A stretch of 64,000 nucleotides of DNA from Roseiarcus sp. (GTDB lineage Bacteria > Pseudomonadota > Alphaproteobacteria > Rhizobiales > Beijerinckiaceae), in contig JBKQKS010000082.1 in assembly GCA_052147395.1 (NCBI GenBank), positions 640-64,639 on the forward strand. Reading direction: 5' to 3'. The notes beneath the pieces were generated by a model that did no database searches, was not told where the DNA came from, and was given only the letters and a program-made list of their open reading frames with translations. A program made the position numbers and the translations under genes. Each line of letters starts with the position of its first letter. Positions within the stretch are counted from its first letter, which is position 1. Shown here one piece after another: positions 9,828 to 43,449 of the stretch.

Positions 9828-11141
9828 TTAGACGAAGACGGGCTGCGCAACCATGCCCGCGACGCCGAAGATGCCTCGGTAGCGCTCGATTTCCTCCGGC
9901 ATGCCCAGCACTTTGTTGGGATTGTCGGAGAGCTTCACGGCGGGCCGGCCCTCGACGTCGACGACCTTGCAGACCAGCGAGATCGCCTTCAGCTGTCCGT
10001 CGACGCCCGCGGGCGCGCAGCCGGAGAAATCGTTGGTGAGGTTGGTTCCCCAACCGATGGAGAGATTGATCTGCCCGCGCAACGCGCCCACGGCCTGTTC
10101 GATCTTTTCGATATCCATGGCGTCCGAGAGCACGACGAGTTTTTCGCGCGGGTCACGGCCGCGTCTCGCCCACCACGCTATGAGCTCGCGAGCCGCATCG
10201 ACGGGGACCTTGGAATCGGGCCTGGCGCCTTTCCAGTCCGCCACCCAGTCCGGCGCGTTCTCCAGGAACGAGGTGGTGCCGAAGCAGTCGGGCAGGACGA
10301 CGAGCAGATTGCCGCCATACATGCGCGCCCAATCGCGCAACACTTCATAGGGCGAGCCCCGCAACGCGACGTCCGTCGGCGCCAGCGCGGCATAGGCCAT
10401 TGGCAATTCATGCGCATTGGTGCCAATGGCTTCCAGGCCAGTTTCCATCGCGTGCTTGACGTTGGACGTGCCGATGAAGTTTTCGCCGAGCCCCTCTTGC
10501 AGGGCCTCGACGCACCAGCGCTGCCACAAGAAGCCATGACGGCGCCGCGTGCCGAAGTCGGAGATTTTGAGCGGCCCTTGCTCGGCGAGCGCCCTGAGCC
10601 GCTCGACCTTGCTCCACAGCTTGGCCTTTGCTCGGGCATAGAGCACGTCGAGGTCGAAACGGCTCATGGAGCGCATGGCGGCGCGGGCGCGCAATTCATT
10701 GATGATGGCGAGCGCCGGGATTTCCCACATCGTCGTTTCGACCCACTCGCCTTCGAAGCGCAGCTCGTATTGGCCGTCGACCTTGGTCAGCTCGTAGGGC
10801 GGCAGGTGGAAGCCGGCGAGCCATTCCATGAAATCCGCCTGGAAAATCTGCTTCGTGCCGTAGAAAGTATTGCCCGCGAGCCAGATCAGCTCGTTCTTGG
10901 CAAAGCGCAAGGTGCGCGCATGGTCGAGCTGGTCGATCAGTTCCCGCTCCTCGACGATCTCTGCGAGCCTGACCTCGGTCGAGCGGTTGATGAGCTGGAA
11001 GGTGACCCTCCGATGTCTATGCAGCTTCCAAATCATTTGTAGCATCAATAATTTATAGAAGTCCGTGTCGAGCAGGGTCCTCAACACTGGGTCGATCCGG
11101 AACGTATGGTTGTAGACACGGGTGGCGAGATCGGGGAGCAT
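9828..11141 (-). CDS. pncB: nicotinate phosphoribosyltransferase
   Basis: N-terminus '[33 protein letters not shown]' is characteristic of PncB. Length is 437 aa. Confidence 0.9.
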
Positions 11142-31881: not shown

Positions 31882-33054
31882 TCAGGCTATGCGCGTCCGG
31901 GCGAGCCGCTCCCTCGCGAGCTCGTATCCCATGCCGGGCGTGTCGGAGAGCACGATATGGCCTGTATCATCAACGCGCAAGGACTCGACCATCATGTAGT
32001 CGCGGCGATCGGCGTCCCACTCCGGCGGGTCGTAAGGGAATTCCATGAAGGGCGCATCGCAGAGGCCCGCGGTCAGATGCGCATTGGCGACGACGCCCAT
32101 GCCGTTCGTCCAGGTGTGCGGGGTGAAGATCAGATTGTGTTCCTGCGCCATCAGCGCGACGCGCCTGAGGCCGGTGATGCCGCCGACCAGCGCGGCGTCG
32201 GGCTGCAGCACGTCCAAACAACCGTCGCGAATCAGATCGCGGAACTCGTAGAGCTCGCGGGTCATCTCGCCGCCCGCGATTCTCACATCCGTCATGTCGC
32301 GCAGCCGGCGCATGCCCTCTCGGTCGCCGCGATGCAGCGGTTCCTCCATCCAATAGACGTTCAGCCGCTCCAGTTCGCGCGCGACCTGCAGGGCGTCCTT
32401 CAGCGTCCACGGCGCATAGGCGTCCCACGACATGCGCCAGCCCTGATTGCAATCGACCATCAGCTCGAGACGATCGCCGACGCGGGCGCGCACGGTCGAA
32501 AGAGCCTCGATGTCCTTGCGCCAGTCGCCGCGATGGAAGCGGATTTTCAGCGCTGCGAAGCCCTGCCCGATATAACGCTCGGCGGCGTCGGCGAGCTCGG
32601 CTGGCCCGCGCAGCGTCCCTGACGAAGCGTAAGCGCGCACGCGATCGGAGAGGCCGCCGATCAACTTCCAGCACGGCTGACGGGTGAGCTTACCGGCGAG
32701 GTCCCACAGCGCCAGGTCGAGCGGCCAGCAGCGGCCCCAGTGAAAGCTGATGTTGTCGAGGACCCGGCGATGGCGTTCGAGGGCGAGCGGATCCTGACCG
32801 ACGAACAGATGCTCGTGGCCCTCGAAGCCGAGCATCATGTCGCCCGAGCCGACGCCGGTGACGCCGAGATCGGTATGGACCTGCACGACGCCGGCGTCGA
32901 AGAAGGTGCGCGGCCGGGTGTCCCAGCTCGCATGGAACGGCGGATCGAACTCGAGCCGATGACGCGTGATCTCGATCCCGGTGATCGTCGCCTTGGGCGC
33001 CTTGGCGGGCGGGACGAAGGGGGCGGGCAAAATTTGGCTCCTATCGGGATGCAA
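31882..33054 (-). CDS. enolase-superfamily enzyme (mandelate racemase/muconate-lactonizing family)
   Basis: Metal-ligand blocks 'LMVDCNQGW', 'WMEEPL' and 'IAGGEM', plus 'LDVLQPD' and 'FTPHTW'. 390 aa. Confidence 0.8.
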   Translation of the reverse strand: MHPDRSQILPAPFVPPAKAPKATITGIEITRHRLEFDPPFHASWDTRPRTFFDAGVVQVHTDLGVTGVGSGDMMLGFEGHEHLFVGQDPLALERHRRVLDNISFHWGRCWPLDLALWDLAGKLTRQPCWKLIGGLSDRVRAYASSGTLRGPAELADAAERYIGQGFAALKIRFHRGDWRKDIEALSTVRARVGDRLELMVDCNQGWRMSWDAYAPWTLKDALQVARELERLNVYWMEEPLHRGDREGMRRLRDMTDVRIAGGEMTRELYEFRDLIRDGCLDVLQPDAALVGGITGLRRVALMAQEHNLIFTPHTWTNGMGVVANAHLTAGLCDAPFMEFPYDPPEWDADRRDYMMVESLRVDDTGHIVLSDTPGMGYELARERLARTRIA

Positions 33055-33207
33055 GATATGTTAAGGATGTGATAACCTGGAGCAATTCAGTTTCGGAATC
33101 TGCATGAAAGCTCGCCCAGCAAACCTGAGAAGTGGACCGAAGCGAGCGAAACTAATTGGCTGAGCTATCATACCAGAGATGTTTGCGGGCGCGAGACGGG
33201 GGTAGTC

Positions 33208-33468
33208 ATGGAAGATGTCCTCATCAGGATCGGAGCTGCGCTGTCGCTTCTAATCCTTGTCGGCCTGCCGATATACCGTTTGGCGAATCCCGCCAGCATT
33301 GATCAAGAATCTCGCTTTGCTGCGGGGTTCCTCGGGGTGTTTCACGCTTTGTTGTACATCGGATTGATGTGGGCTCTTGGAGCGGCTTTTGTAAAGGCTA
33401 TCGAATTTTTTTGGACAGTGTGCCGGGGACGAACAAAAGTGGGCCGCCTCACGGCTATGCTCCGCTGA
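33208..33468 (+). CDS. small two-TM membrane protein (hypothetical), low-GC codon usage
   Basis: 86 aa with two hydrophobic stretches. It sits in an AT-richer stretch and overlaps the vapC 3' end by 14 nt in convergent orientation. Confidence 0.35.
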   Translation: MEDVLIRIGAALSLLILVGLPIYRLANPASIDQESRFAAGFLGVFHALLYIGLMWALGAAFVKAIEFFWTVCRGRTKVGRLTAMLR

Positions 33469-33847
33469 CATCGGTCTTGGCGAAGTCGCCGCCCTTGAAC
33501 AGAAGCGGAGCCCCGAGGGTCCTGGCGAGCGCGTAGGCCGCGCAATCCGACAGATTCAGTCGCGCTCGAGGATCAATGCCTTTGCCGTAACGGTCGAATG
33601 CGTCGGCGACCGCGTGTACCTGGACTTCATCGAAGGGAACTATTTCGACCATGTTATCGGCCAGCTATCGCCAAAACTCGCGCACGGCGCCTGAGCCAAA
33701 CTTGCCCCGCAAAATACACGCCGTTTCATGGGCGTTGACTACGGATATGAGGCAGCGTTCGTCTCCGTCGATCTTGTCTTGGAATGTTTGTCGTTCCGGT
33801 TCGCCGAAAAGTATGGCCAGAATCGCTGAACTATCTACAACAATCAT
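33455..33847 (-). pseudogene. vapC: PIN-domain toxin VapC interrupted by an in-frame TAG
   Basis: ORFs 33665..33847 ('MIVVDSSAILAILFGEPE...') and 33455..33652 ('...LNLSDCAAYALARTLGAPLLFKGGDFAKTD') are in the same frame. They are separated only by TAG (33665..33667) plus four sense codons. Together they form one canonical PIN domain. Confidence 0.8.
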
Positions 33848-34116
33848 AGCGCATTCAGATCGTCGATGATCTCATTGACGGGACGACTGTCGAGGATCGG
33901 CATCGCGGCAAGCTCCGCCACGAATCGGTTGGTCCGCTCCCGACGCGCGGCCACCGCCGCTGGAGACGTGTCACGTGGCGGCCTAGCCTTCGTTGCCAAG
34001 TCGGCCGCGCGGATTTTTTCCTCGAGCGCAGACCTTATGGCTTCCTCGACAGAAACGCCACGGGCGACGGCGAGCCATTGAGCGAGAGCTTCGGTTTCAC
34101 GAGTGAGGTTGATCAT
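33844..34116 (-). CDS. vapB: VapB/FitA-like antitoxin
   Basis: 90 aa. It sits immediately upstream of vapC with an ATGA overlap. The N-terminal region resembles a DNA-binding domain. Confidence 0.7.
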   Translation of the reverse strand: MINLTRETEALAQWLAVARGVSVEEAIRSALEEKIRAADLATKARPPRDTSPAAVAARRERTNRFVAELAAMPILDSRPVNEIIDDLNAL

Positions 34117-34250
34117 TGGGGCAAGCTAACGACGTTTGTCTCGAAAATCCAGACGAACCTTGCGTCGCCGACGAAAACGCGCCCCACCACTTCGGCAAAG
34201 TACCGTCGAAAGACGCGGAAGAGGACATTCGAAGGTTCGAGGGTTTAGGG

Positions 34251-34547
34251 TCACAAGCCGAAGGGCTGCGCGTATTCGTCGAGATCGGCGTTGGCGGCGG
34301 CGGCCGTCGCTCGGGCCCAAGCGTAGGCGCGAACCAAAGTCTCGTCGTCGACGCCGAGCTCCGACGCCAGCCGCAGCAGCGTGTGCAGATCCACGTCGCT
34401 GAACAGCGCGCGCAAGTGCGAACCCTCGCCCTCGCCGGTCGCCAACAAACGACCGAGGTCCTCGCGCCGGACGGGAACGCGGCTCGCGTTCTCGATCGCG
34501 GAGATTGCGGTCGAGGCGGGGTCGAAGCGGCGCCCGGTAACGCTCAA
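34251..34547 (-). CDS. hypothetical 98-aa protein translationally coupled (TTGA overlap) to the AbiEii-like gene
   Basis: High GC3 when read by eye. TTG start overlaps the upstream stop. I recognise no motif. Confidence 0.45.
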   Translation of the reverse strand: MSVTGRRFDPASTAISAIENASRVPVRREDLGRLLATGEGEGSHLRALFSDVDLHTLLRLASELGVDDETLVRAYAWARATAAAANADLDEYAQPFGL

Positions 34548-35191
34548 GTCATCGTCTCCAGCAAAGCGGTCGCTGTCGAGATCAGCGAGTGAAGCAAGGC
34601 GTCAAATTCGCCGAGGCACAGAATGTCTTTGCCGAGTTCGTCAGCCGGGACGCGTTCGAGCGATCCGAGACGCCGCAGTTGTTGCACGCGCCGCGGCGAC
34701 GAAGCCTTGATCGCACGCTCGGCGGCCGCCGGGTCGACCTGATGGGTCGCGACGAGGTCGAAGACGTCGCGCGGTTTCAACAACGCGGCGCGAAAATAGA
34801 GCTTCTTGGCGAGGATTTCCTCGCTGCTCTCGAGCGCGATCCGGCGCCCGTCGAAATCCAGCGTTGCGCTGGGCCGCACGCCGGTCACATCGCCGGCGAC
34901 GATGAAGTCGACATCGCCGTCGGCGAACGCGAGTTTCAGGGAATTGGCCTGTTCGGAATAGTCTCGCGCCAAAGCCGCGGCGCGATCGTTGAGTCGCGGC
35001 GTCAGCAACCCGAGCCATTGCGCGTCGTGCATGAAGAGGTCGATGTCCTTCGACAGTCGATGCCGATAGCGCATCATCAGCACGGTCCCGCCGCCGAGCG
35101 TGAGGTCGGGGGCGCCGAAACCGCGCTCGGCGAGATCGTCGAGAAGGACGAGGGCTGACGTCAGCAGGCCCTTCCAGCTGTTCTCGTCCAT
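34544..35191 (-). CDS. nucleotidyltransferase of the AbiEii/AbiGii (DUF1814) toxin family
   Basis: 'GGGTVLMMRYRHRLSKDIDLF' (GG..L....R.S.DID motif), 'DVDFIV', and 'ILAKKLYFRAALLKPRDVFDL'. Confidence 0.7.
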   Translation of the reverse strand: MDENSWKGLLTSALVLLDDLAERGFGAPDLTLGGGTVLMMRYRHRLSKDIDLFMHDAQWLGLLTPRLNDRAAALARDYSEQANSLKLAFADGDVDFIVAGDVTGVRPSATLDFDGRRIALESSEEILAKKLYFRAALLKPRDVFDLVATHQVDPAAAERAIKASSPRRVQQLRRLGSLERVPADELGKDILCLGEFDALLHSLISTATALLETMT

Positions 35192-35257
35192 GGCTCACCG
35201 CCTCCCGCCGGCGCTCAGCGATAATCGCTCGGGATTGCCTCACCGAGCTTCGATTCG

Positions 35258-35677
35258 TCAACCGAGAATGGCTTTGTTTGCATCGAAAAGCCCGAGCTGG
35301 CCCCTCGCAGGAACGAATGCGCACGGCTCGGGATCGCGTAGCGCCAGCCCCATCCCCCCTCGGGCGAACCAAGGCGACCGGCTCTTGTTCACGATGTCCA
35401 CTACCTGGACGCTGCCAATGAAGCCCCCCAACTCCAACTCCTCCTTAGGAGGGCAGGACACGCCCAGCTTTGCCATGAACTCCGCCGCCCATTCATAGTC
35501 CACGCGTGTCATCGACTTTCCTGCGTGGATATAAATCCTGTGGCCGAGCGCGCGCCCTTTCATAGTGGCGGCGGCTTGTTCTGACCGGTTTTCGACATCT
35601 TTTCCGCCGTGGATGATCGCCCACGCCCAAGGCTGGCGCACCGAAATCGCATATTCGATTTCCGAGGTCCCGCGCAT
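35258..35677 (-). CDS. ASCH-domain protein
   Basis: 'ISVRQPWAWAIIHGGKDVENR' is a typical ASCH N-terminal block. 139 aa from the internal ATG at 35677 of listed ORF 35258..36406. Confidence 0.7.
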   Translation of the reverse strand: MRGTSEIEYAISVRQPWAWAIIHGGKDVENRSEQAAATMKGRALGHRIYIHAGKSMTRVDYEWAAEFMAKLGVSCPPKEELELGGFIGSVQVVDIVNKSRSPWFARGGMGLALRDPEPCAFVPARGQLGLFDANKAILG

Positions 35678-35709
35678 CGCGCGTCCGCTCCGGTTGGCGT
35701 CGTTCGGAC

Positions 35710-37215
35710 CTAGCGATAGTCGATCCAGATCGTCTTCAAGTCCATGTATTTGTCGATCGCATGGGGCGAGCGGTCGCGGCCGAAGCCGGATTGCTTGAAG
35801 CCGCCGAACGGCGTGGACAGCGACGAGCGGTCGAAGGTGTTGACCCACACGGTTCCGGCGCGGATCGCGCGGCTGAGACGATGCGCGGCGCGCATGTCTC
35901 TGGTCCATACCGCTGCGGCGAGACCGTAGATCGTGTCGTTGGCGAGTCTTATCGCCTCGGCCTCGGTCTCGAACGGAACGACGACGACGACGGGGCCGAA
36001 AATCTCTTCCTGGGCGACGCGCATGTCGTTGCTGACGTCGTCGAGGATCGTCGGCTCGACGTAATAGCCGCCGGTCTCTTCCATCGCGCGCTTGCCGCCG
36101 AGGGCGACGCGCGCGCCCTCCTTTACGCCGAGCTCGATGAACCCAAGCACGCGCTCCATCTGCCGCTGGTCGATCATGGCGCCGAGCTGCGCGTTGGGAT
36201 CGAAGGGATGGCCGAGCGGGATCTCGGCGCGCTGAACCTCGGCGATCTTGGCGACCAGCGCGGCGCGGATGGAAGCGTGCGCGAGCACGCGGGAGCCGGC
36301 GTGGCAGGTCTCGCCCTGATTGTAGTAGATGCCCCAGGCGATCCCCTCCGCCGCGGCCTCGAGGTCGGCGTCGGGCATCACCACATGCGGGCTTTTTCCT
36401 CCGCATTCCAGCGCGACGCGCTTCATGTTGCTGCTGCCCGCGTAAGTCATCATCAGCTTGCCGACTTCGGTTGAGCCGGTGAAGGCGATCATATCGACGT
36501 CCATGTGCTCGGCGAGCGGCTTGCCGGTTTTTTCGCCGAAGCCGGGCACGACATTGAACACGCCGTCGGGAATGCCGGCCGCTTTCGCGAGCTTGCCGAG
36601 ATAGAGCGAGCCCAGCGGCGATTGTTCGGCGGGCTTGAGGATCACCGAATTGCCGGCGACCAGCGCCGGGCCGATCTTCCAGGCGGCGATGATGAGCGGA
36701 TAGTTCCAGGGCACGACGGCGCCGATGACGCCGAGCGGCTCCTTCCTCACCAACGCGAGCTCGTTCGGCCCGGGGGTCGGCGCGATCTCGTCGTAGAGCT
36801 TGTCGGCGAGCTCGGCGTAGTACTGGATGCAGTTGGCCGAGAGCGGAACGTCGACCGCGATCGAGTTCGCGATCGGCTTACCGACGTCGAGCGTCTCGAG
36901 CAGCGCGATGTCGTCATTGTGCTCTCGGATCAGCTCGGCAAAGCGCAGCAGAACCTTTTTCTTGGTCTGCGGATCGGCGTCGCGCCAGACGCCCGATTCG
37001 AAGCTCCGCCGCGCCGCGGCGACCGCGCGGTCGATGTCGGCGGCGGCGCAATCGGCGACTTCCGCTATCGCCAGCCCGTCGATCGGCGAGATCTTGGAAA
37101 ACGTCTTGCCCGAGAGGGCGGGAACATAGGCGCCGTCGATGAACGCGCGTCCCTCCGGTTTCAAGTCGGCGGCGCGGGCGAGCCAGGCGGCGCGGGAATT
37201 GGGGCGGTCGAGCAT
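35710..37215 (-). CDS. NAD(P)+-dependent aldehyde dehydrogenase (PuuC/AldH-like)
   Basis: 'VVPWNYPL', 'FTGSTEVGK', 'LECGGKSP' (catalytic Cys) and 'EEIFGPV'. 501 aa from the ATG at 37215 (listed ORF extends to 37869). Confidence 0.9.
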   Translation of the reverse strand: MLDRPNSRAAWLARAADLKPEGRAFIDGAYVPALSGKTFSKISPIDGLAIAEVADCAAADIDRAVAAARRSFESGVWRDADPQTKKKVLLRFAELIREHNDDIALLETLDVGKPIANSIAVDVPLSANCIQYYAELADKLYDEIAPTPGPNELALVRKEPLGVIGAVVPWNYPLIIAAWKIGPALVAGNSVILKPAEQSPLGSLYLGKLAKAAGIPDGVFNVVPGFGEKTGKPLAEHMDVDMIAFTGSTEVGKLMMTYAGSSNMKRVALECGGKSPHVVMPDADLEAAAEGIAWGIYYNQGETCHAGSRVLAHASIRAALVAKIAEVQRAEIPLGHPFDPNAQLGAMIDQRQMERVLGFIELGVKEGARVALGGKRAMEETGGYYVEPTILDDVSNDMRVAQEEIFGPVVVVVPFETEAEAIRLANDTIYGLAAAVWTRDMRAAHRLSRAIRAGTVWVNTFDRSSLSTPFGGFKQSGFGRDRSPHAIDKYMDLKTIWIDYR

Positions 37216-37437
37216 GAACAACCTCTCGAGGAGACCGAGATCCCGCTTGGGGCGTCCAGGGCCGAACGCGCGGGGATTCGCCGGGCAGTGTCGACGACCG
37301 GGGCTTTCGGGGAAACGCAATTTTGGAGATATGCCAATGCCTTCCGGGCATGGGCGGCGTCCCTTGCGGTCGCCCGAAGCCGGCGTTAACATCCGCGCGC
37401 GCGACTTTCCCCCGAAAGCCACGGTTCGAAGGCGCTG

Positions 37438-38100
37438 ATGCTGATCGTTCACCACCTCGACAATTCGCGGTCGCAGCGTGTGCTGTGGCTGCTGGAAGAG
37501 CTCGCGCTGCCCTATGAGCTCGAGTTTTACCGGCGCGATCCTAAAACGATGCTCGCCCCGCCCGAGCTCAAGCGGGTGCATCCGCTCGGCAAGTCGCCCG
37601 TCGTCACCGACGGCGATGCGACCCTCGCGGAGACTGGCGCGATCGTGGAATATCTCGTCGACAAGGCCGGCGGCCGGCTGCGGCCGCCCGAGGGGTCGCC
37701 CGAGCGGCTGCGTTGGACCTATTGGCTGCATTACGCCGAGGGTTCGGCGATGCCGCCCTTGTTGCTGCAACTGGTGTTTTCTATGCTCCCGTCGCGTTCG
37801 CCCGCGCTGGTGCGACCGATCGTGAGCGCCATCGCGGCGCGGACAATCGGCAGCTTCGTCGCCCCGCAACTCGCGACTCAGTTCGATTTCCTCGAGAGCG
37901 AACTGACGAAATCCAAATGGTTCGCCGGCGAAGAGTTCTCAGCCGCCGACGTGATGATGAGCTTTCCGCTCGAGGCTGGAGGCGCCCGCGCCAACGCCTA
38001 TCGAGGCCGTCCGCGGTTGAAGGCGTTCGTGGAAGGGTGCCATGCGCGCCCCGCCTACCAGCGGGCGCTGGAAAAGGGCGGGCCCTACGCTTACGCTTGA
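37438..38100 (+). CDS. glutathione S-transferase
   Basis: 'SRSQRVLWLLEELALPYE...HPLGKSPVV'. 220 aa. Confidence 0.85.
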   Translation: MLIVHHLDNSRSQRVLWLLEELALPYELEFYRRDPKTMLAPPELKRVHPLGKSPVVTDGDATLAETGAIVEYLVDKAGGRLRPPEGSPERLRWTYWLHYAEGSAMPPLLLQLVFSMLPSRSPALVRPIVSAIAARTIGSFVAPQLATQFDFLESELTKSKWFAGEEFSAADVMMSFPLEAGGARANAYRGRPRLKAFVEGCHARPAYQRALEKGGPYAYA

Positions 38101-38483
38101 AGTGAGGCCGGGCCGCCTTTCCCTCGCGCCGCGTCCGGGATAAGGGAGGGCCGACTTTCCACGCCCAGACCGGATTTTCCAAATGGCCGGATGCGTTACG
38201 GGCATGTACAGGCCGGGCGATCGGGCGCGGCGGCGCGGCTTGGAGGAGGAGGCGGGGCGAAAACGCGGGGTCGCGGTCTCGATCGACAGGTTGGGACGGG
38301 AAGCGGCCGTGTCGCATGTGCGCGGGATCGGAAAGCGGGATTTTCTGCTATCGGAAATGCATGGTACTCTAGTTTGCGGACGCGACTTGGTGCTGCTTGC
38401 CACTGCCTTTGAGTGAACGGAGCTTGCGATCCAGCGGTTGGCGCAACAAGATAACGGCTCCGTGGCGGTTAGAAAGTCAATGA

Positions 38484-39614
38484 ATGGCAATGCACACGAA
38501 CGAACAAAAGCCCGTCGATTCCGTCGAGGAGCCCGAGGGTGCTGGAGATGCTGGCGGCGACGGTTGGGGGGACTACCCGCTCGACGCAGTATTCGTGCGC
38601 ACCGAGCAACGCACGGTTGGCGAGGTTGTGAACCGTATTGCAAAGGGTCGGTACATCCTGGACCCCGATTTCCAACGTGACTTTGTTTGGGAAACCGAGA
38701 AGCAATCCAAGCTCATCGAGAGCTGCGTTATGCGTATCCCGCTTCCGGTCTTCTACGTGGCCGAGGCGCCTGACGGACGTATCATCGTCGTCGATGGCTT
38801 GCAGCGCCTAACGACATTCGCCCGTTTCCTCGGCGGCCAACTAAAGCTGACCGGGTTGGTCAGCGAGGGAAACACCAAATCGCATGAATTGCAGGGTAAG
38901 ACCTACGAGCAACTGCCGATAAATCTGCAGGAGCGGGTGGCCGATACGCAGCTCACCATGTATATCCTCGACGCGAAGGCACCCGAGCGCGCGCGGCTCG
39001 ATATTTTCGAGCGCGTGAACAGCGGGGCGCGCCTGACGCGCCAGCAGATGCGGAACGCACTCTATAACGGGCCTGCGACTCAATGGCTCAAATCGGCGGC
39101 AGAGGGATCGGCATTCCGGACGGCCACCGCAGGATCGCTAGACAGCAAGAGCATGCGAGACCGGGAAGCCATCAATCGATTTGCTGCCTTCTCGTTAATC
39201 GGATGGCGCGACTATACAACAGGCGACATGGACGAGTTCTTAGCCAAGGGACTTAAGATCCTAGCGCGGTGCGCCGAGTCCGAGCGGCTCGATCTTCGGC
39301 GCAAGTTCGATGCCGCCATGATGCTTAATCACCGAATGTTCCAGCAACACGCTTTTCGCAAATCATTGGCGTCTGACTACTCCGGGGTTGCCCGCAGCGT
39401 GATTAACATCTCGCTTTTCGAGGTGAGTGCAGCTGTGTTCGCGCGATTCGCCGAAAAGTTCGATCCTGCAGGCGACGCCGCTCTTCATAAGATTATGGTT
39501 GATCTCGTGAGGGACGATGCGTTCGCTAAGTCTATTACTTACTCTACCAATAGTACCCAGGCCGTACGTCATCGGTTCGGAAGGCTAGAGGCAGCGCTGG
39601 AGGAACTCGTTTGA
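38484..39614 (+). CDS. DUF262 (ParB/Srx-fold, GmrSD-N-terminal-like) protein; no DUF1524/HNH nuclease tail recognised
   Basis: 'LDPDFQRDFVWE' and 'VVDGLQRLTTFARFL' are the two hallmark DUF262 blocks. 376 aa. Codon usage has lower GC. Confidence 0.8.
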   Translation: MAMHTNEQKPVDSVEEPEGAGDAGGDGWGDYPLDAVFVRTEQRTVGEVVNRIAKGRYILDPDFQRDFVWETEKQSKLIESCVMRIPLPVFYVAEAPDGRIIVVDGLQRLTTFARFLGGQLKLTGLVSEGNTKSHELQGKTYEQLPINLQERVADTQLTMYILDAKAPERARLDIFERVNSGARLTRQQMRNALYNGPATQWLKSAAEGSAFRTATAGSLDSKSMRDREAINRFAAFSLIGWRDYTTGDMDEFLAKGLKILARCAESERLDLRRKFDAAMMLNHRMFQQHAFRKSLASDYSGVARSVINISLFEVSAAVFARFAEKFDPAGDAALHKIMVDLVRDDAFAKSITYSTNSTQAVRHRFGRLEAALEELV

Positions 39615-40726
39615 GCGACTCGATCCTGAAGGCACTCCAGATTGAGGATTTCAAGTGCTTCGAATTGTTGCGTGTTCCGTTTGCGTTGTTAACGGTGTTG
39701 AGCGGCTATAACGGCGCGGGCAAATCGACCGCCCTTCAGCCGTTACTTCTGCTAGCGCAGGCTGCGCGACGACGGACCTGGACCTACGATACGCCGACGG
39801 GCGATTTGCCATTGAACGGCGAGATCGTTCGCCTTGGTTCGGCAGGTGATGTCATTCGCGCGCAGTCGGCAACCGCTACCGCGCGTTTCGAGATTTTCGG
39901 TCATGAAAGGTCGCTCAGGTTGAGCGCAACCGCCAAAACCGGGGCCCGAAGTCTGAGCGCGACAAAGCACGAGGGTAATAGCAACTGGCCCGAACTCTTC
40001 AAGAGCTTTGCTCGCCTTGTCTATTTGAGCGCCGTGCGTGGCGGCCCGGCCGAGGCCTTTCCGACACCCGACCGGGTCAGCGATCAGGTGCCCGATGTGG
40101 GGGCCGAGGGACAATTCGCTAGCTATTGGTATCATGAACGCGCGGACACGGAGATCGATGTTGGACGCCGGTTCCCTGAGGTACCAGGTACTACTTTTCG
40201 CAAGCAAGTAGACGCTTGGCTCAGTCAACTCGCGCCCGGCGCGAGTGCTAATGTGCAGGCACTACCGGTCGCGTCGATGCTGGCGCTACAGTTCCGGCTA
40301 TCGGAGACCGGTGAATGGCGGCGCCCGGCGAATGTCGGTTACGGTTTGACCTATTCATTTCCGATCCTGGTGGCACTGCTGTCCGCGGAGCCCGGCGACA
40401 TAGTCGTAATTGACAGCCCAGAGGCACATCTCCATCCCCAAGCGCAATCGCGCATGGGACGGATGCTCGCCGCTTTTGCTGCGGCGGGCATACAGCTCGT
40501 CATCGAAACGCACAGCGACCATGTTCTCAATGGGATAAGGCTAGCTGTCCGCGACAAGGTGTTGGGCGAGGCGGAACTCAGTTTGTTGTTTTTCGCTGGT
40601 AGCTCGCTGGCGGGGCACGGCGTCACGAGTCCGCGAATAGACGGCGAGGGCCGCATCAACGAATGGCCCGATGGCTTCTTCGATCAGGGGGATAAAGACG
40701 TCGCGCAGCTCGCGGGATGGAACTGA
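39611..40726 (+). CDS. ABC/OLD-type AAA ATPase (AAA_15/21-like) with DUF3696-like C-terminus
   Basis: Walker A 'GYNGAGKST'. Walker B 'IVVIDSPEAHLHP'. H-loop 'ETHSDH'. C-terminal 'INEWPDGFFDQ'. TTG start overlaps the upstream stop (TTGA). Confidence 0.8.
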   Translation: MSDSILKALQIEDFKCFELLRVPFALLTVLSGYNGAGKSTALQPLLLLAQAARRRTWTYDTPTGDLPLNGEIVRLGSAGDVIRAQSATATARFEIFGHERSLRLSATAKTGARSLSATKHEGNSNWPELFKSFARLVYLSAVRGGPAEAFPTPDRVSDQVPDVGAEGQFASYWYHERADTEIDVGRRFPEVPGTTFRKQVDAWLSQLAPGASANVQALPVASMLALQFRLSETGEWRRPANVGYGLTYSFPILVALLSAEPGDIVVIDSPEAHLHPQAQSRMGRMLAAFAAAGIQLVIETHSDHVLNGIRLAVRDKVLGEAELSLLFFAGSSLAGHGVTSPRIDGEGRINEWPDGFFDQGDKDVAQLAGWN

Positions 40727-40727
40727 A

Positions 40728-41690
40728 GTGCGCTGGTATTTAAACGACGCTTCTCTCCAAGGCCAATTTTCCGACCGCACCGAATTCCAAAGTGTGCTCC
40801 GCGGCCTGATTGCCGCACGAGTTCGGATTCCGGCAATTCGTCAGAATTTGCGATCGACGCGTTCGCTGCAGGAATCGATGGTGGCCCCGAGGACAAATGT
40901 GCGAGAAGCCCTATTCGAGATCCGCGACAGGGACTTAAAAGCAGCGACTCTGTCTTGGCTAGATAAGACCGGCCCGTTCGTTGACGATGATCGGCTGGAT
41001 GAGGCGGACGACTATTTCGAATATCGGGACATTGAAATCACCTCGACGGGACTGGGCGAGGCCGCACGCCGGGTGAAGGCCGGAACCGAATGCGCGACCT
41101 TTAGCTTTGTCGGAGGGGCGATAGACTATGCGATCGATCCGCTCGCAGTTGATCATGGACTGCGCGAAGAGCGCTATGGTCGGTACTTAGTGCCCAACCT
41201 TTGGGAGACCGACGCGCTCGTCAGCCATGGGCTAGCAGCAGGGGAGCCGATCCGATCGTGGGCTGCTTTGGTTGAGGGCGCGCGGCACCGCTTTCCCTAC
41301 CTCGAGATCGGTTTGCTTGACTCGCGCCCAGTGCTCGCCCGCGAACCGTTCGAAGCTTCGGTACGGGATCGCGCTCTAGAACTTTTGAAGGTGCTCAATG
41401 ACTACGTAGCGGGTCGAACTGAAGACGGAGCAGAAGGGCCGGCTGCGCAAGCAATTATACAAAGCTATTTCGCTGGTGACAGGGCACTTTTTACCGGAGA
41501 GTCTTCAACGAATCAGAAATACTTCGCTAAGGACATGACGTTTCAGCGGGTATCTGGCGGCAACTATTTCGCGCACTGGCATGGAAAGATCAGTCATCGA
41601 TTCTTTCGGTTACACTTCGAATGGCCTCTGGAAAGGGACCGGAAGAAATTGGAAATTTTCTATCTTGGACCGAAGATCACAAAGAGCTAA
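40728..41690 (+). CDS. hypothetical 320-aa protein, third gene of the DUF262/ATPase operon; no recognisable domain
   Basis: GTG lies 1 nt after the ATPase stop (TGAaGTG). The ATG at 40671 is the alternative and would overlap the upstream gene by 56 nt. Amino-acid composition is normal rather than shadow-like. Confidence 0.65.
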   Translation: MRWYLNDASLQGQFSDRTEFQSVLRGLIAARVRIPAIRQNLRSTRSLQESMVAPRTNVREALFEIRDRDLKAATLSWLDKTGPFVDDDRLDEADDYFEYRDIEITSTGLGEAARRVKAGTECATFSFVGGAIDYAIDPLAVDHGLREERYGRYLVPNLWETDALVSHGLAAGEPIRSWAALVEGARHRFPYLEIGLLDSRPVLAREPFEASVRDRALELLKVLNDYVAGRTEDGAEGPAAQAIIQSYFAGDRALFTGESSTNQKYFAKDMTFQRVSGGNYFAHWHGKISHRFFRLHFEWPLERDRKKLEIFYLGPKITKS

Positions 41691-41871
41691 TCCCCGCGCC
41701 ATGTCCGCTCCGCCTCGCCCCTCCTCCGCTCGCCGCGCAGCCGCAAAGCCTGGCGTCTCGGCCATCGGTCTCCCTCTTCTATGCCGGCGCGAGCAACGTC
41801 GCCCCGCCACCCTTCCCCTGAGCCCCGGTTAGCGCTAAGGGAGCGCGCCTCCCGAAAGCCCGCACGAGACC

Positions 41872-43449
41872 ATGTCCCAAGAAAACCCTGTCGCGCGCCG
41901 GCGCACGTTCGCGATCATCTCGCACCCGGACGCCGGCAAGACCACGCTCACCGAAAAGATCCTGCTGTTCGGCGGCGCGATCCAGCTCGCCGGCGAAGTG
42001 CGCGCCAAGGCGAACCGCCGGCAGACGCGCTCCGACTGGATGGGCATCGAGCGCGAGCGCGGCATCTCGGTCGTCACCTCGGTGATGACCTTCGAATACG
42101 GCGACTGCGTCTTCAACCTGCTCGACACCCCGGGCCACGAGGACTTTTCGGAGGACACCTACCGCACGCTCACCGCCGTCGACTCCGCCGTCATGGTGAT
42201 CGACGCCGCCAAAGGCATCGAGTCGCGCACCCGCAAATTGTTCGAGGTCTGCCGTCTGCGCGACATCCCGATCGTCACCTTCATCAACAAGATGGACCGC
42301 GAGACGCGCGACCCGTTCGATCTCATCGACGAGATCGAGAAGACGCTGGCGCTCGACGCGACGCCGCTCACCTGGGCGATCGGCCGCGCCCGCTCGCTCG
42401 CCGGCGCCTACGACATCCGCCGCAAGACGTTTCGCACCCTCGGCAAGGAGGCCGAGGATACGCCGGCGAGCGGCCCGGACGACCCGGCGATTGCGGAGCT
42501 GTTGCCCGAGTACGAGCGGGCCGGCTACATCGACGAGATGACGCTCGCCGTGGAAGGCAGCAAGCCGTTCGACAAACAGGCGTTCCTCGAAGGCCACATG
42601 ACGCCGGTGTTGTTCGGCTCGGCCTTGAAGGAATTCGGCGTGCGCGACCTCATCGACGCGATGGCCGAGCTGGCGCCGCCGCCGCGCGCGCAAGAGGCGT
42701 CGAGCCGCACGGTGAAGGCGGACGAGCCCAAGATGACCGGCTTCGTGTTCAAGATCCAGGCCAACATGGACCCCAACCACCGCGACCGCATCGCCTTCAT
42801 GCGGGTGTGCTCCGGTATGCTGCGCCGCGGCATGCGGGCGAAGCTGGTGCGCACCGGCAAGTCGGTGACGCTGTCGGCGCCGCAGTTCTTTTTCGCCCAG
42901 GACCGTTCGCTCGCGGAACAGGCCTATGCCGGCGACGTCGTCGGCATCCCCAACCACGGCCTGCTGCGCATCGGCGATACGATGACCGAGGGCGAGGACA
43001 TCGTGTTCCGCGGCGTGCCGAGCTTCGCCCCGGAAATTCTGCGTCGCGTGAAGCTCGCCGATGCGATGAAGGCCAAGAAGCTGCGCGAGGCGTTGCAGCA
43101 GATGGCGGAAGAGGGCGTCGTGCAGGTGTTCGTGCCGCACGACGGCGCCAGCGCGATCGTCGGCGTGGTCGGCGCGCTGCAGCTCGACGTGCTCGCCGAG
43201 CGGCTGGAGTCCGAATACGGCCTTCCCGTTTCGTTCGAGCCGAGCCGCTTCGAGGTCTGCCGCTGGGTGACGTCGAGCGAGAAGACGGAACTGGAGAAAT
43301 TCGTCGCCGCTTATCCCTCGTCGATCGCCGCCGACCTCGACGGCGCGCCGGTGTTCATGGCGACCTCGGCCTTCAACCTGCGTTACGAACAGGAGCGCTG
43401 GCCGAAGGTCGTCTTCGCCGACGTCAAGGACTATCAGAAGGCGGCGTGA
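41872..43449 (+). CDS. prfC: peptide chain release factor 3
   Basis: 'RRTFAIISHPDAGKTTLTEKILLFGGAIQLAG' and 'DTPGHEDF'. 525 aa. Confidence 0.95.
   Translation: MSQENPVARRRTFAIISHPDAGKTTLTEKILLFGGAIQLAGEVRAKANRRQTRSDWMGIERERGISVVTSVMTFEYGDCVFNLLDTPGHEDFSEDTYRTLTAVDSAVMVIDAAKGIESRTRKLFEVCRLRDIPIVTFINKMDRETRDPFDLIDEIEKTLALDATPLTWAIGRARSLAGAYDIRRKTFRTLGKEAEDTPASGPDDPAIAELLPEYERAGYIDEMTLAVEGSKPFDKQAFLEGHMTPVLFGSALKEFGVRDLIDAMAELAPPPRAQEASSRTVKADEPKMTGFVFKIQANMDPNHRDRIAFMRVCSGMLRRGMRAKLVRTGKSVTLSAPQFFFAQDRSLAEQAYAGDVVGIPNHGLLRIGDTMTEGEDIVFRGVPSFAPEILRRVKLADAMKAKKLREALQQMAEEGVVQVFVPHDGASAIVGVVGALQLDVLAERLESEYGLPVSFEPSRFEVCRWVTSSEKTELEKFVAAYPSSIAADLDGAPVFMATSAFNLRYEQERWPKVVFADVKDYQKAA

What the first reader, a model, noticed from the sequence alone, without database searches (positions are those of the whole stretch)
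38484..41690. Three-gene DUF262 / ABC-type ATPase (DUF3696-like) / orphan-protein operon in a low-GC islet: candidate anti-phage defence system
Seen in sequence:
- Three co-oriented genes are packed with coupling junctions: TTGA overlap at 39611-39614 and TGAaGTG at 40724-40730.
- Gene 1 carries both DUF262/ParB-fold hallmarks ('DPDFQRDFVW', 'DGLQRLTTF'). I recognise no DUF1524/HNH tail, so it is not a classical GmrSD.
- Gene 2 has Walker A 'GYNGAGKST', Walker B 'VVIDSPEAHLHP', H-loop 'ETHSDH' and a 'WPDGFFDQ' tail of DUF3696 type.
- Gene 3 (320 aa) has no motif I can name.
- The islet is visibly less GC-rich than its flanks. Hand count of single lines: 39361-39420 has 32/60 GC, 42001-42060 has 45/60 GC.
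- It sits between two housekeeping genes (GST and prfC) and has no integrase or transposase.

Established knowledge: DUF262 domains occur in GmrSD, BrxU, SspE and DndB/DptG-type defence proteins. OLD/ABC-type ATPases with DUF3696 tails recur in defence islands.

Inference: this is an NTP-driven sensor/effector defence module. The nearest architecture I can recall is the Menshen-type class (DUF262 + AAA/DUF3696 ATPase + a third gene). I cannot verify membership, and gene 3 may be unrelated to any described third component.
Basis: partly seen in the sequence, partly recalled or inferred. Interest (0 to 1): 0.85.

Follow-up and report, generated by a model that had tools for sequence, protein, structure and literature searches.

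The report
Menshen anti-phage defence gene cassette
The three genes are an intact copy of Menshen, an already described three-protein bacterial anti-phage defence system, picked up by horizontal transfer between two housekeeping genes; it is a routine find and not a new kind of system.

Summary
The islet 38101-41821 has the lowest GC in the window (0.587 vs 0.658±0.020, z = -3.5).

All three proteins match the PADLOC Menshen models end to end: NsnA 1e-112, NsnB 1e-96, NsnC 6e-105. Gene 3 is therefore not an orphan; it is the NsnC effector. NsnA has no extra N-terminal domain, which makes this Type I Menshen.

The trio keeps the same order in 24 of 30 related genome loci. None of those shares these flanks. 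It also occurs on conjugative plasmids. Relatives with 90-91% identical prfC lack it, and one is collinear across an empty site. The cassette is under purifying selection.

Mechanism is inferred from the literature: NsnA senses phage DNA, the NsnB ABC ATPase transduces, and NsnC acts as a nuclease, probably an RNase. The fold of the NsnC C-terminal domain could not be assigned: no Pfam, PDB or viral-structure match.

Interest is low.

The parts
38101..41821 (+). Horizontally acquired islet holding only the Menshen cassette plus short non-coding ends
   Evidence: Homology to relative L037/L038 ends at the GST stop (38100). Homology to relative L036 resumes at 41822. GC is 0.587, z = -3.5 against the rest of the window.
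38101..38483 (.). Non-coding leader upstream of nsnA; presumed promoter region
   Evidence: It has no counterpart in the relatives or in the nearest trio-bearing loci, whose DNA homology starts at 38482. No sigma-70 consensus site was found here, so the promoter is not located.
38484..39614 (+). nsnA: ParB-fold DUF262 NTPase plus C-terminal DNA-binding (ParBDB-type) region; proposed sensor. Motif I QRDFVW at 38673-38690, motif II DGLQR at 38793-38807, motif III FERVN at 39006-39020
   Evidence: PADLOC NsnA 1.1e-112, covering model positions 38-382 of 385. Pfam PF03235 1.8e-24 and no DUF1524. All three motifs are invariant in 25 sequences.
39611..40726 (+). nsnB: OLD/ABC-type ATPase with DUF3696 tail; proposed transducer. 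Walker A GYNGAGKST at 39704-39730, Walker B region IVVIDSPEAHLHP at 40400-40438, DUF3696 at 40616-40711
   Evidence: PADLOC NsnB 1.4e-96, covering model positions 2-344 of 345. Pfam AAA_21, AAA_15 and DUF3696. In Walker B, D-S-P is invariant across the clade, so Ser replaces the usual catalytic Glu. GYG stands in the position of the signature motif.
40728..41690 (+). nsnC: two-domain effector. N-terminal alpha/beta domain (residues 1-~205, 40728-41342) and C-terminal alpha+beta module (residues ~206-320, 41343-41687) with invariant W284-H285-G286-K287, R294, H296, G314-P315-K316, T318
   Evidence: PADLOC NsnC PDLC03896 5.6e-105, covering model positions 2-318 of 319. The two halves match different sets of NsnC sub-models. 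AF2 models have pLDDT 93.6 and 92.1. Invariant residues come from a 58-sequence alignment.
41691..41821 (.). Non-coding tail between the nsnC stop and the point where homology to relatives resumes upstream of prfC
   Evidence: No terminator-like site was found. An independent Logan contig (L001) spans nsnA(3' end)-nsnB-nsnC-prfC(start) at 100% identity.

Best explanation
This is an intact Type I Menshen (NsnA-NsnB-NsnC) anti-phage defence cassette. It was acquired horizontally and sits between a GST gene and prfC in an uncultured alphaproteobacterium. The nearest named prfC relatives are Roseiarcus sp. MAGs.

Likely mechanism, inferred from published analyses of the family and not tested here:
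1. NsnA, a ParB-fold DUF262 NTPase with a C-terminal DNA-binding region, recognises incoming phage DNA.
2. DNA-bound NsnA switches the nucleotide state of the NsnB ABC ATPase. NsnB is predicted in the literature to form a tetramer.
3. The DUF3696 tails of NsnB hold NsnC by its N-terminal PIN-like domain.
4. The ATP-dependent change releases or activates the C-terminal nuclease module of NsnC. That module most probably cuts RNA through a His/Arg/His(Lys) site. The cut RNA may be phage RNA, or host RNA in an abortive-infection mode.

Shown here: gene identities, full-length family membership, operon coupling, motif conservation, modularity of NsnC, mobility and purifying selection.

Inferred: the sensor, transducer and effector roles, the RNase activity, and any phage protection in this host.
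For: Family membership: PADLOC gives NsnA 1.1e-112, NsnB 1.4e-96 and NsnC 5.6e-105, all over nearly the full model length. The next-best models are far weaker: PD-T4-2_A 2e-28, HEC-03B 1e-27, AriA 1e-21. Pfam finds DUF262, AAA_21/AAA_15 and DUF3696.

Operon: genes 1 and 2 overlap by 4 bp and genes 2 and 3 are separated by 1 bp.

Co-occurrence: the trio is in the same order and tightly spaced in 24 of 30 genome loci found through NsnC, across many genera.

Motifs: NsnA motifs I-III and NsnB Walker A are conserved.

Modularity: the N and C halves of NsnC match partly different NsnC sub-models.

Mobility:
- None of the 24 loci shares the GST, prfC, ALDH or HAD flanks.
- Homologues lie on conjugative plasmids, once bracketed by two recombinase genes.
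- L036 is collinear at about 86% nt with an empty site. L035, L037 and L038 also lack the trio.
- The trio is GC-poor here (z = -3.5) and in 20 of 23 other hosts.

Selection: pN/pS is 0.16-0.33.

Literature: the S. silvestris Menshen protects against T2, T4, T6 and Fado, and the sensor/transducer/effector model is set out in PMC12065111. Loss of the DUF262 gene abolishes protection (PMC10952713).
Against: - No experiment exists for this locus or its clade. This clade shares only HMM-level similarity with the tested S. silvestris system.
- The nuclease fold of the NsnC C-terminal domain could not be confirmed. Foldseek against PDB and BFVD, hmmsearch against PDB, and Pfam at E<=10 all gave nothing significant.
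- The PIN-like nature of the N-terminal domain was not confirmed either.
- NsnB lacks the canonical catalytic Glu after Walker B (D-S-P), so it may bind ATP and hydrolyse it poorly.
- No promoter or terminator consensus was found around the cassette.
- The locus is not inside a large defence island. Its immediate flanks are housekeeping genes, and the other GC dips of the window hold ordinary genes.
Confidence: 0.9

Rival explanations
1. Same Menshen cassette, but the effector acts on DNA in a restriction-like way and not on RNA. NsnA would recognise modified or foreign DNA as GmrSD, BrxU and SspE do, and NsnC would nick or cleave that DNA.
For: DUF262 proteins characterised so far drive DNA cleavage or nicking (PMC10952713; PMC12065111). 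The NsnC C-terminal fold is unassigned here, so a DNase is not excluded. Some NsnC variants in the literature carry Toprim or PLD-type nuclease domains.
Against: No Toprim, PLD, HNH or PD-(D/E)xK family was detected in NsnC. The invariant residues are His, Lys, Arg and His on consecutive beta-strands of a small alpha+beta module, with no acidic metal-binding cluster in that module. That pattern fits metal-independent RNases of the RelE/YafQ type and the 'H-R-H' site reported for the commonest Menshen effector. The only suggestive structural hit was a YoeB/ParE toxin, and it was not significant.
Confidence: 0.15
2. It is not an immune system in this host. It would be a selfish addiction or stabilisation module, or a ParB-ATPase DNA-handling module, that persists because losing it is toxic.
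For: The cassette travels on plasmids and next to recombinases and transposases. It carries a likely toxin domain. It sits 2.4 kb from another window-specific block with toxin-antitoxin-type genes (VapB, split VapC, AbiEii). There is no phenotype for this clade.
Against: The family's founding member gives phage protection that depends on the DUF262 gene. No antitoxin-like small gene accompanies the trio. It shows the strict three-gene conservation and effector polymorphism typical of defence systems (PMC12065111). No centromere-like repeats were found around it.
Confidence: 0.05
3. It is a decaying, non-functional remnant of a Menshen cassette.
For: NsnB lacks the canonical Walker B Glu. No promoter consensus lies upstream. 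Degraded copies exist elsewhere: L030 is a 95-aa fragment directly after a 1001-aa ORF that looks like a Tn3-family transposase by eye, and L025/L026 are frameshifted solitary NsnC copies.
Against: All three ORFs are uninterrupted and cover their models end to end. The D-S-P Walker B variant is invariant across the whole clade, so it is a family trait and not a lesion. Deviant Walker B and signature motifs are also reported for the functional S. silvestris NsnB. pN/pS is 0.16-0.33.
Confidence: 0.05

Closest known systems
Menshen (NsnA-NsnB-NsnC), Type I, as defined by Millman et al. 2022 and surveyed by Li et al. 2025 (PMC12065111)
   Same: It has the same three proteins in the same order. NsnA carries DUF262 motifs QRxxxW, DGxQR and FxxxN plus a C-terminal region, with no extra N-terminal domain. 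NsnB is an ABC ATPase with a DUF3696 tail, a GxG motif in place of the SGG signature and a non-canonical Walker B. NsnC has two domains that recombine independently. The cassette shows a mobile, patchy distribution.
   Different: It is only distantly related in sequence to the experimentally tested Solibacillus silvestris system. Walker B reads D-S here, against E-N reported there. I could not read off which of the published inPIN and effector sub-families this NsnC belongs to. Its H285/R294/H296 pattern resembles the 'H-R-H' PB-BECR1 site, but that is a motif analogy only. Unlike about 28% of published loci, it is not next to R-M, BREX or methylase genes.
GmrSD / BrxU / SspE (DUF262-DUF1524 type IV restriction-like enzymes)
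   Same: They share an N-terminal ParB-fold DUF262 NTPase with the same three motifs, which acts as the nucleic-acid sensor. Weak PADLOC hits to SspE and to HEC-05/06 cover only the first ~50-80 residues of the domain.
   Different: This protein has no DUF1524/HNH nuclease tail. The nuclease is a separate protein, coupled through an ABC ATPase.
Gabija (GajA), PARIS (AriA/AriB), Septu (PtuA/PtuB), OLD: ABC-ATPase-controlled nuclease defence systems
   Same: NsnB is the same kind of OLD/ABC ATPase (AAA_15/AAA_21). It gives partial PADLOC hits to AriA (1e-21), GajA (4e-15), PtuA (3e-13) and Old (3e-15). The literature predicts the same logic, an ATPase oligomer holding and gating a toxic nuclease.
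   Different: NsnB has no Toprim domain, and there is no GajB, AriB or PtuB partner. It has a DUF3696 tail and an additional DUF262 sensor protein. The hits are 70-80 orders of magnitude weaker than the NsnB hit.
PD-T4-2 and Dazbog (other DUF262 systems without DUF1524)
   Same: They have a DUF262 protein without an HNH tail. PD-T4-2_A is the second-best PADLOC hit for gene 1 (2.3e-28).
   Different: The score is much weaker than for NsnA (1e-112). The partner genes differ, and there is no DUF3696 ATPase plus NsnC pair.

Membership tests
Menshen | NsnA: ParB-fold DUF262 domain with motifs QRxxxW, DGxQR, FxxxN | tested here: met
   PF03235 1.8e-24. QRDFVW, DGLQR and FERVN are present and invariant in 25 sequences.
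Menshen | NsnA: C-terminal ParBDB-type region following DUF262, with no DUF1524 nuclease | tested here: met
   The PADLOC NsnA model aligns over positions 38-382 of 385, which includes the C-terminal half. No DUF1524/HNH family in Pfam. The fold of this region was not modelled separately.
Menshen | NsnB: OLD/ABC-type ATPase followed by a DUF3696 helix | tested here: met
   PADLOC NsnB 1.4e-96, covering 2-344 of 345. AAA_21 1.8e-22, AAA_15 3.4e-19, DUF3696 4.6e-10. Walker A, H-loop and GxG are conserved.
Menshen | NsnC: third gene immediately downstream that belongs to the NsnC family | tested here: met
   PADLOC NsnC PDLC03896 5.6e-105, covering 2-318 of 319, plus weaker hits to eight other NsnC sub-models. 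The gap after nsnB is 1 bp.
Menshen | NsnC N-terminal domain has a PIN-like (Rossmann-like) fold | tested here: inconclusive
Menshen | NsnC C-terminal domain is a nuclease/toxin module (BECR, Toprim, PLD or other) | tested here: inconclusive
   It is a confident alpha+beta model with invariant H285, K287, R294, H296 and K316. It behaves as a portable module: 439 clusters, also found at the end of unrelated 600-660 aa proteins. No significant match in PDB, BFVD or Pfam.
Menshen | Conserved three-gene operon across unrelated genomes | tested here: met
   24 of 30 loci carry NsnA-NsnB-NsnC in the same order with short gaps. Plasmid copies are annotated DUF262 / DUF3696 / hypothetical.
Menshen | Protects against phage infection | not testable with these tools
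   This is known only for the S. silvestris system (PMC12065111; PMC10952713).
GmrSD / BrxU / SspE | DUF262 fused to a DUF1524 (HNH-type) nuclease in one polypeptide | tested here: not met
   Gene 1 has only PF03235, and no DUF1524 at E<=0.1. The SspE hit covers only residues 40-81.
Gabija / PARIS / Septu / OLD | ABC ATPase fused to, or partnered with, a Toprim or HNH nuclease (GajA-Toprim+GajB, AriA+AriB, PtuA+PtuB) | tested here: not met
   The ATPase hits are only partial (1e-21 to 1e-13, against 1e-96 for NsnB). No Toprim domain or partner gene is present.

The most novel reading that the evidence does not exclude
The NsnC of this clade may carry an effector module that is not one of the catalogued Menshen effector families. 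Its signature is F.G..A.F.GES..N...WHGK....R.H.EWP...Y.GPK.TK. It has no Pfam model and no detectable neighbour in PDB or BFVD. It occurs in 439 protein clusters and also caps unrelated 600-660 aa coiled-coil proteins.

In addition, the N-terminal PIN-like domain keeps near-invariant acidic residues (D7, D87, E92, D95, E98, E111). NsnC could therefore be a dual nuclease, which would go against the published 'inactive PIN' view.
Probability: 0.15. Interest if true: 0.4.

Novelty: new member of a known kind. Interest (0 to 1): 0.2.

Why it matters
This adds one more intact Type I Menshen cassette, in an uncultured soil-type alphaproteobacterium. It comes with a clean empty-site comparison showing that the three genes move as a bare 3.2-kb unit, without their own integrase.

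Menshen's mechanism is still untested biochemically, so any intact, compact example is a possible study object. The alphaproteobacterial clade documented here has strongly conserved candidate catalytic residues (NsnC H285, K287, R294, H296, K316; NsnB D268-S269) that give ready-made mutants.

It does not change what is known about bacterial immunity.

Tried and rejected
1. Fold assignment of NsnC. I tried Foldseek of the full model against PDB, of the C-terminal model against PDB and against BFVD, a profile hmmsearch against PDB sequences with the full protein and with the C-domain, and Pfam at E<=10 on 26 C-domain sequences. Nothing was significant. The best hint was a YoeB/ParE toxin at rank 5 (E 2.6, TM 0.46 on the target), which I do not count as evidence.

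2. Mapping onto the published inPIN and effector nomenclature. The paper's supplementary tables are not held, so the sub-family remains unassigned.

3. Looking up the exact source contig through the 270-aa NCBI form of NsnC gave no record.

4. Insertion mechanism. The islet has no tRNA, no flanking direct or inverted repeats beyond chance-size matches, no integrase or transposase and no Rfam family anywhere in the window.

5. Phage carriage. There is no NsnC homologue in 50,697 phage records.

6. I first read the partial NsnC matches (L025, L026, L029-L031) as evidence of domain shuffling. L030 proved to be a fragment cut off directly after a 1001-aa ORF that I identified as a Tn3-family transposase by eye only, and L025/L026 are frameshifted solitary copies. 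I therefore rest the modularity claim on the split PADLOC scan and on the long proteins that carry the same module.

7. I checked whether the window is a larger defence island. The other GC dips hold a glycosyltransferase, cytidylate kinase, a GGDEF-EAL protein, a sarcosine-oxidase-like protein and a GNAT, so it is not.
Full report
OBSERVATION

The region holds three + strand ORFs: 38484-39614 (376 aa), 39611-40726 (371 aa, TTG start) and 40728-41690 (320 aa from GTG; an upstream in-frame ATG at 40671 would give 339 aa). The junctions are exactly as described, a TTGA overlap at 39611-39614 and TGA-a-GTG at 40724-40730. Every quoted peptide motif is in the translations. The GTG start of gene 3 is supported in two ways. 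Most of its 411 homologues are 320 aa, and the family model aligns from residue 21 of the longer form.

The GC dip is real. The two hand-counted lines are exact, 32/60 and 45/60. The 3721-bp stretch 38101-41821 has GC 0.587, against 0.658 +/- 0.020 for 1057 same-size windows elsewhere in the 64 kb. That is below their minimum of 0.610, z = -3.5. Third-position GC is 0.59-0.67 for the trio, against 0.80 for GST and 0.92 for prfC. The flanks are a GST (Pfam GST_N/GST_C) and release factor 3. The islet holds no integrase, transposase, tRNA or meaningful flanking repeat.

WHAT IT IS

Pfam gives gene 1 the GmrSD_N/DUF262 domain (1.8e-24) and nothing else. Gene 2 gets AAA_21 (1.8e-22), AAA_15 (3.4e-19) and DUF3696 (4.6e-10). 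Gene 3 gets nothing.

Against PADLOC's defence-protein models, all three are end-to-end matches to the Menshen components:
- NsnA 1.1e-112, model positions 38-382 of 385
- NsnB 1.4e-96, positions 2-344 of 345
- NsnC sub-model PDLC03896 5.6e-105, positions 2-318 of 319

The runner-up models are 70-85 orders of magnitude weaker: PD-T4-2_A 2e-28, HEC-03B 1e-27, AriA 1e-21, GajA 4e-15 and PtuA 3e-13. Gene 3 is therefore not an orphan. NCBIfam has no specific model for any of the three. That is why plasmid copies are annotated only as 'DUF262 domain-containing', 'DUF3696 domain-containing' and 'hypothetical'.

Menshen was defined by Millman et al. in 2022. A copy from Solibacillus silvestris protects against T2, T4, T6 and Fado (PMC12065111), and protection needs the DUF262 gene (PMC10952713). 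A 2025 survey of 1997 loci describes the components as follows:
- NsnA is ParB-DUF262 plus a DNA-binding 'ParBDB' domain and acts as the sensor.
- NsnB is an ABC ATPase plus DUF3696 and acts as the transducer. It is predicted to form a tetramer whose tails clamp NsnC.
- NsnC is an N-terminal PIN-like domain plus one of about 15 interchangeable C-terminal effector domains, mostly RNases.
- Systems whose NsnA lacks an extra N-terminal domain are Type I.

Here the NsnA model match begins at residue 32, after an acidic, Gly-rich loop. That leaves no room for an extra domain, so this is Type I.

DETAILS OF THE THREE PROTEINS

I aligned the window with 23-25 related loci.
- NsnA motifs QRDFVW, DGLQR and FERVN are invariant.
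- NsnB keeps Walker A (GxNxxGKS), the H-loop His and a GYG in the place of the ABC signature. The paper reports GxG for SGG in NsnB.
- The NsnB Walker B reads IVVID-S-PE, with D-S-P invariant in the clade. The canonical catalytic Glu is therefore a Ser throughout. This is a family trait and not a lesion. The S. silvestris protein also deviates, with E-N.

NsnC folds confidently, with pLDDT 93.6 and pTM 0.82, into two parts. The first is an alternating beta/alpha N-terminal domain of about residues 1-205. The second is a C-terminal part with two helices followed by a small antiparallel sheet. Modelled alone, the C-terminal part has pLDDT 92.1.

Invariant residues in the C-terminal part are W284, H285, G286, K287, R294, H296, W299, P300, Y312, G314, P315, K316 and T318. 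They lie on consecutive strands. This pattern is typical of metal-independent RelE/YafQ-type RNases, and it recalls the 'H-R-H' site reported for the commonest Menshen effector, PB-BECR1. That is an analogy and not a test.

No tool here could assign the fold. Foldseek against PDB, with the full model and with the isolated domain, found nothing significant, and nor did Foldseek against BFVD. A profile search against PDB sequences and Pfam at E<=10 also found nothing. I could not consult the paper's supplementary classification.

The N-terminal domain keeps conserved acidic residues: D7 just after strand 1, then D87, E92, D95, E98 and E111. Whether PIN-like domains in NsnC are inactive (PMC12065111) or active (bioRxiv 2026.08.28.747851) is disputed in the literature. 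It is not resolved here.

MODULARITY

Scanned separately, the N half of NsnC hits sub-models PDLC03896, 03889, 03891, 03912, 03883 and 03879. The C half hits 03896, 03879, 03887 and 03914. The two halves therefore have partly independent relatives.

An exhaustive profile search with the C-terminal 93 residues against 1.84 billion representative proteins found 439 clusters at E<=1e-3, of which 346 are at E<=1e-10. Nearly all carry the match at the C-terminus of 310-330 aa proteins. A few are unrelated 430-660 aa proteins with coiled-coil-like middles. The domain behaves as a portable effector module.

A genome-collection scan through NsnC returned 30 loci from many genera, including Sandaracinobacteroides, Novosphingobium, Aureimonas, Rhodopila, Cupriavidus, Massilia, Qipengyuania, a Gaiellales MAG and a Longimicrobiaceae MAG. 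Twenty-four of them have NsnA-NsnB-NsnC in the same order with short gaps. None has GST, prfC, the aldehyde dehydrogenase or the HAD hydrolase within 10 kb.

NsnA homologues occur on 44 plasmid records. On a conjugative Gluconobacter plasmid the trio is bracketed by two recombinase genes. On a Cupriavidus taiwanensis megaplasmid it lies near a Tn3 transposase. No phage record carries NsnC.

The closest prfC relatives are 90-91% identical at the protein level, and the nearest named ones are Roseiarcus sp. MAGs at 84-87%. Four of their contigs were fetched, and none has the trio upstream of prfC. L036 is collinear with the window at about 86% nucleotide identity, as follows:
- window 30954-33029 matches L036 5220-7306
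- window 35717-37216 matches L036 7326-8828
- window 41822-43454 matches L036 8953-10582

This leaves two window-specific blocks, 33030-35716 and 37217-41821.

L037 and L038 keep the GST (78% nt to 37426-38100) next to the racemase gene but have no trio. The GST is therefore resident, and the acquired segment is 38101-41821.

DNA similarity to the nearest trio-bearing loci (L005 and L027, about 76%) spans only 38482-41688, so the mobile unit is essentially the three ORFs. In 20 of 23 other hosts the trio is also GC-poorer than its flanks, by 0.06 on average.

The genes are under purifying selection, with pN/pS 0.16-0.33, and NsnC evolves fastest. An independent short-read assembly contig (L001) spans the 3' end of nsnA through nsnB and nsnC to the start of prfC at 100% identity, so that junction is not an assembly artefact of one record.

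MECHANISM

Shown here: the identity of the parts, their coupling, conserved catalytic-type residues, modular effector, mobility and selection.

Inferred from the literature, and marked as such:
1. NsnA binds incoming phage DNA through DUF262 and ParBDB.
2. This changes the ATP state of the NsnB oligomer.
3. The DUF3696 tails of NsnB hold the N-terminal domain of NsnC.
4. The C-terminal nuclease of NsnC is then released or activated and cleaves RNA, of phage or host.

No published biochemistry exists for any Menshen. A 2025 preprint reports only that a Menshen forms higher-order complexes of unresolved stoichiometry.

The main mechanistic rival is a DNA-targeting effector. I rate this at 0.15, because no DNase-type family or acidic metal site is seen in the effector module.

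Non-defence (addiction) and relic readings are unlikely, at 0.05 each. The ORFs are intact with full model coverage, the unusual Walker B is clade-wide, and selection is purifying.

COMPARISON AND NOVELTY

The locus meets every sequence-level defining feature of Menshen that I could test. The two fold-level features of NsnC were inconclusive, and the phenotype is untestable here.

It is not a GmrSD/BrxU/SspE enzyme, because it has no DUF1524. It is not Gabija, PARIS or Septu, because it has no Toprim domain or partner genes and only partial ATPase similarity.

It is a new member of a known kind. A specialist running PADLOC or DefenseFinder would get 'Menshen' at once, so interest is low (0.2).

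The residual novelty is that this clade's effector module has no Pfam, PDB or BFVD neighbour. It may or may not be one of the already named PB-BECR families.

Noticed in passing
window 33030-35716: This is a second window-specific block, absent from the collinear relative L036, and it is GC-poor at 33000-34250 (0.54-0.59). It carries toxin-antitoxin-type genes on the minus strand. They are a VapB/Rv0623-like antitoxin (33844-34116), a PIN/VapC toxin split into two ORFs that match the two halves of the PIN model (33665-33847 and 33455-33652, probably a pseudogene), an AbiEii-type nucleotidyltransferase (34544-35191, PF08843 3e-14) followed by a 98-aa ORF, and a weak ASCH-like ORF (35258-35680).
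   Followed up: partly
window 40400-40438 (NsnB residues 264-276): The Walker B of NsnB reads IVVID-S-PE. Ser replaces the usual catalytic Glu, and D-S-P is invariant in all 26 clade members. This suggests an ATP-binding switch with slow or assisted hydrolysis. The S. silvestris protein is reported to deviate differently (E-N).
   Followed up: partly
proteins P0258 (621 aa) and P0340 (661 aa), C-terminal ~90 residues: The NsnC C-terminal module (WHGK...R.H.EWP...GPK.TK) also ends long proteins with unrelated N-terminal regions and coiled-coil-like middles that have no Pfam domains. These could be effectors of other, undescribed conflict systems.
   Followed up: partly
L030 7025-10393 (Agrobacterium cavarae NZ_SISF01000020.1): Only a 95-aa C-terminal fragment of NsnC remains (10106-10393). 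It lies directly after a 1001-aa ORF that I identified as a Tn3-family transposase by reading its sequence; I did not scan it against Pfam. This looks like a Menshen cassette destroyed by transposition. L025 and L026 hold frameshifted solitary NsnC copies without NsnA or NsnB.
   Followed up: partly
L034 2351-7387 (Gluconobacter thailandicus plasmid NZ_CP043045.1): The Menshen trio is bracketed by two 'recombinase family protein' genes, next to a VapC toxin gene and the plasmid repC. This may be a recombinase-borne mobile cassette form of the system.
   Followed up: no
window 38101-38483 and 41691-41821: The non-coding ends of the islet match neither the relatives nor other Menshen loci. They show no sigma-70 consensus promoter or intrinsic terminator. 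The upstream piece has a strong G-over-C skew (0.16-0.17). How the cassette is transcribed, and how it was inserted, is unexplained.
   Followed up: partly
L036 1835-4812: The relative with the empty site carries two tandem IS66-family transposase genes about 2.4 kb beyond the racemase gene (about 4 kb upstream of prfC). Its racemase and aldehyde dehydrogenase genes are called in fragments. This region upstream of prfC therefore appears to be a hotspot of rearrangement in this lineage. L035, L037 and L038 each have yet another gene set there.
   Followed up: no
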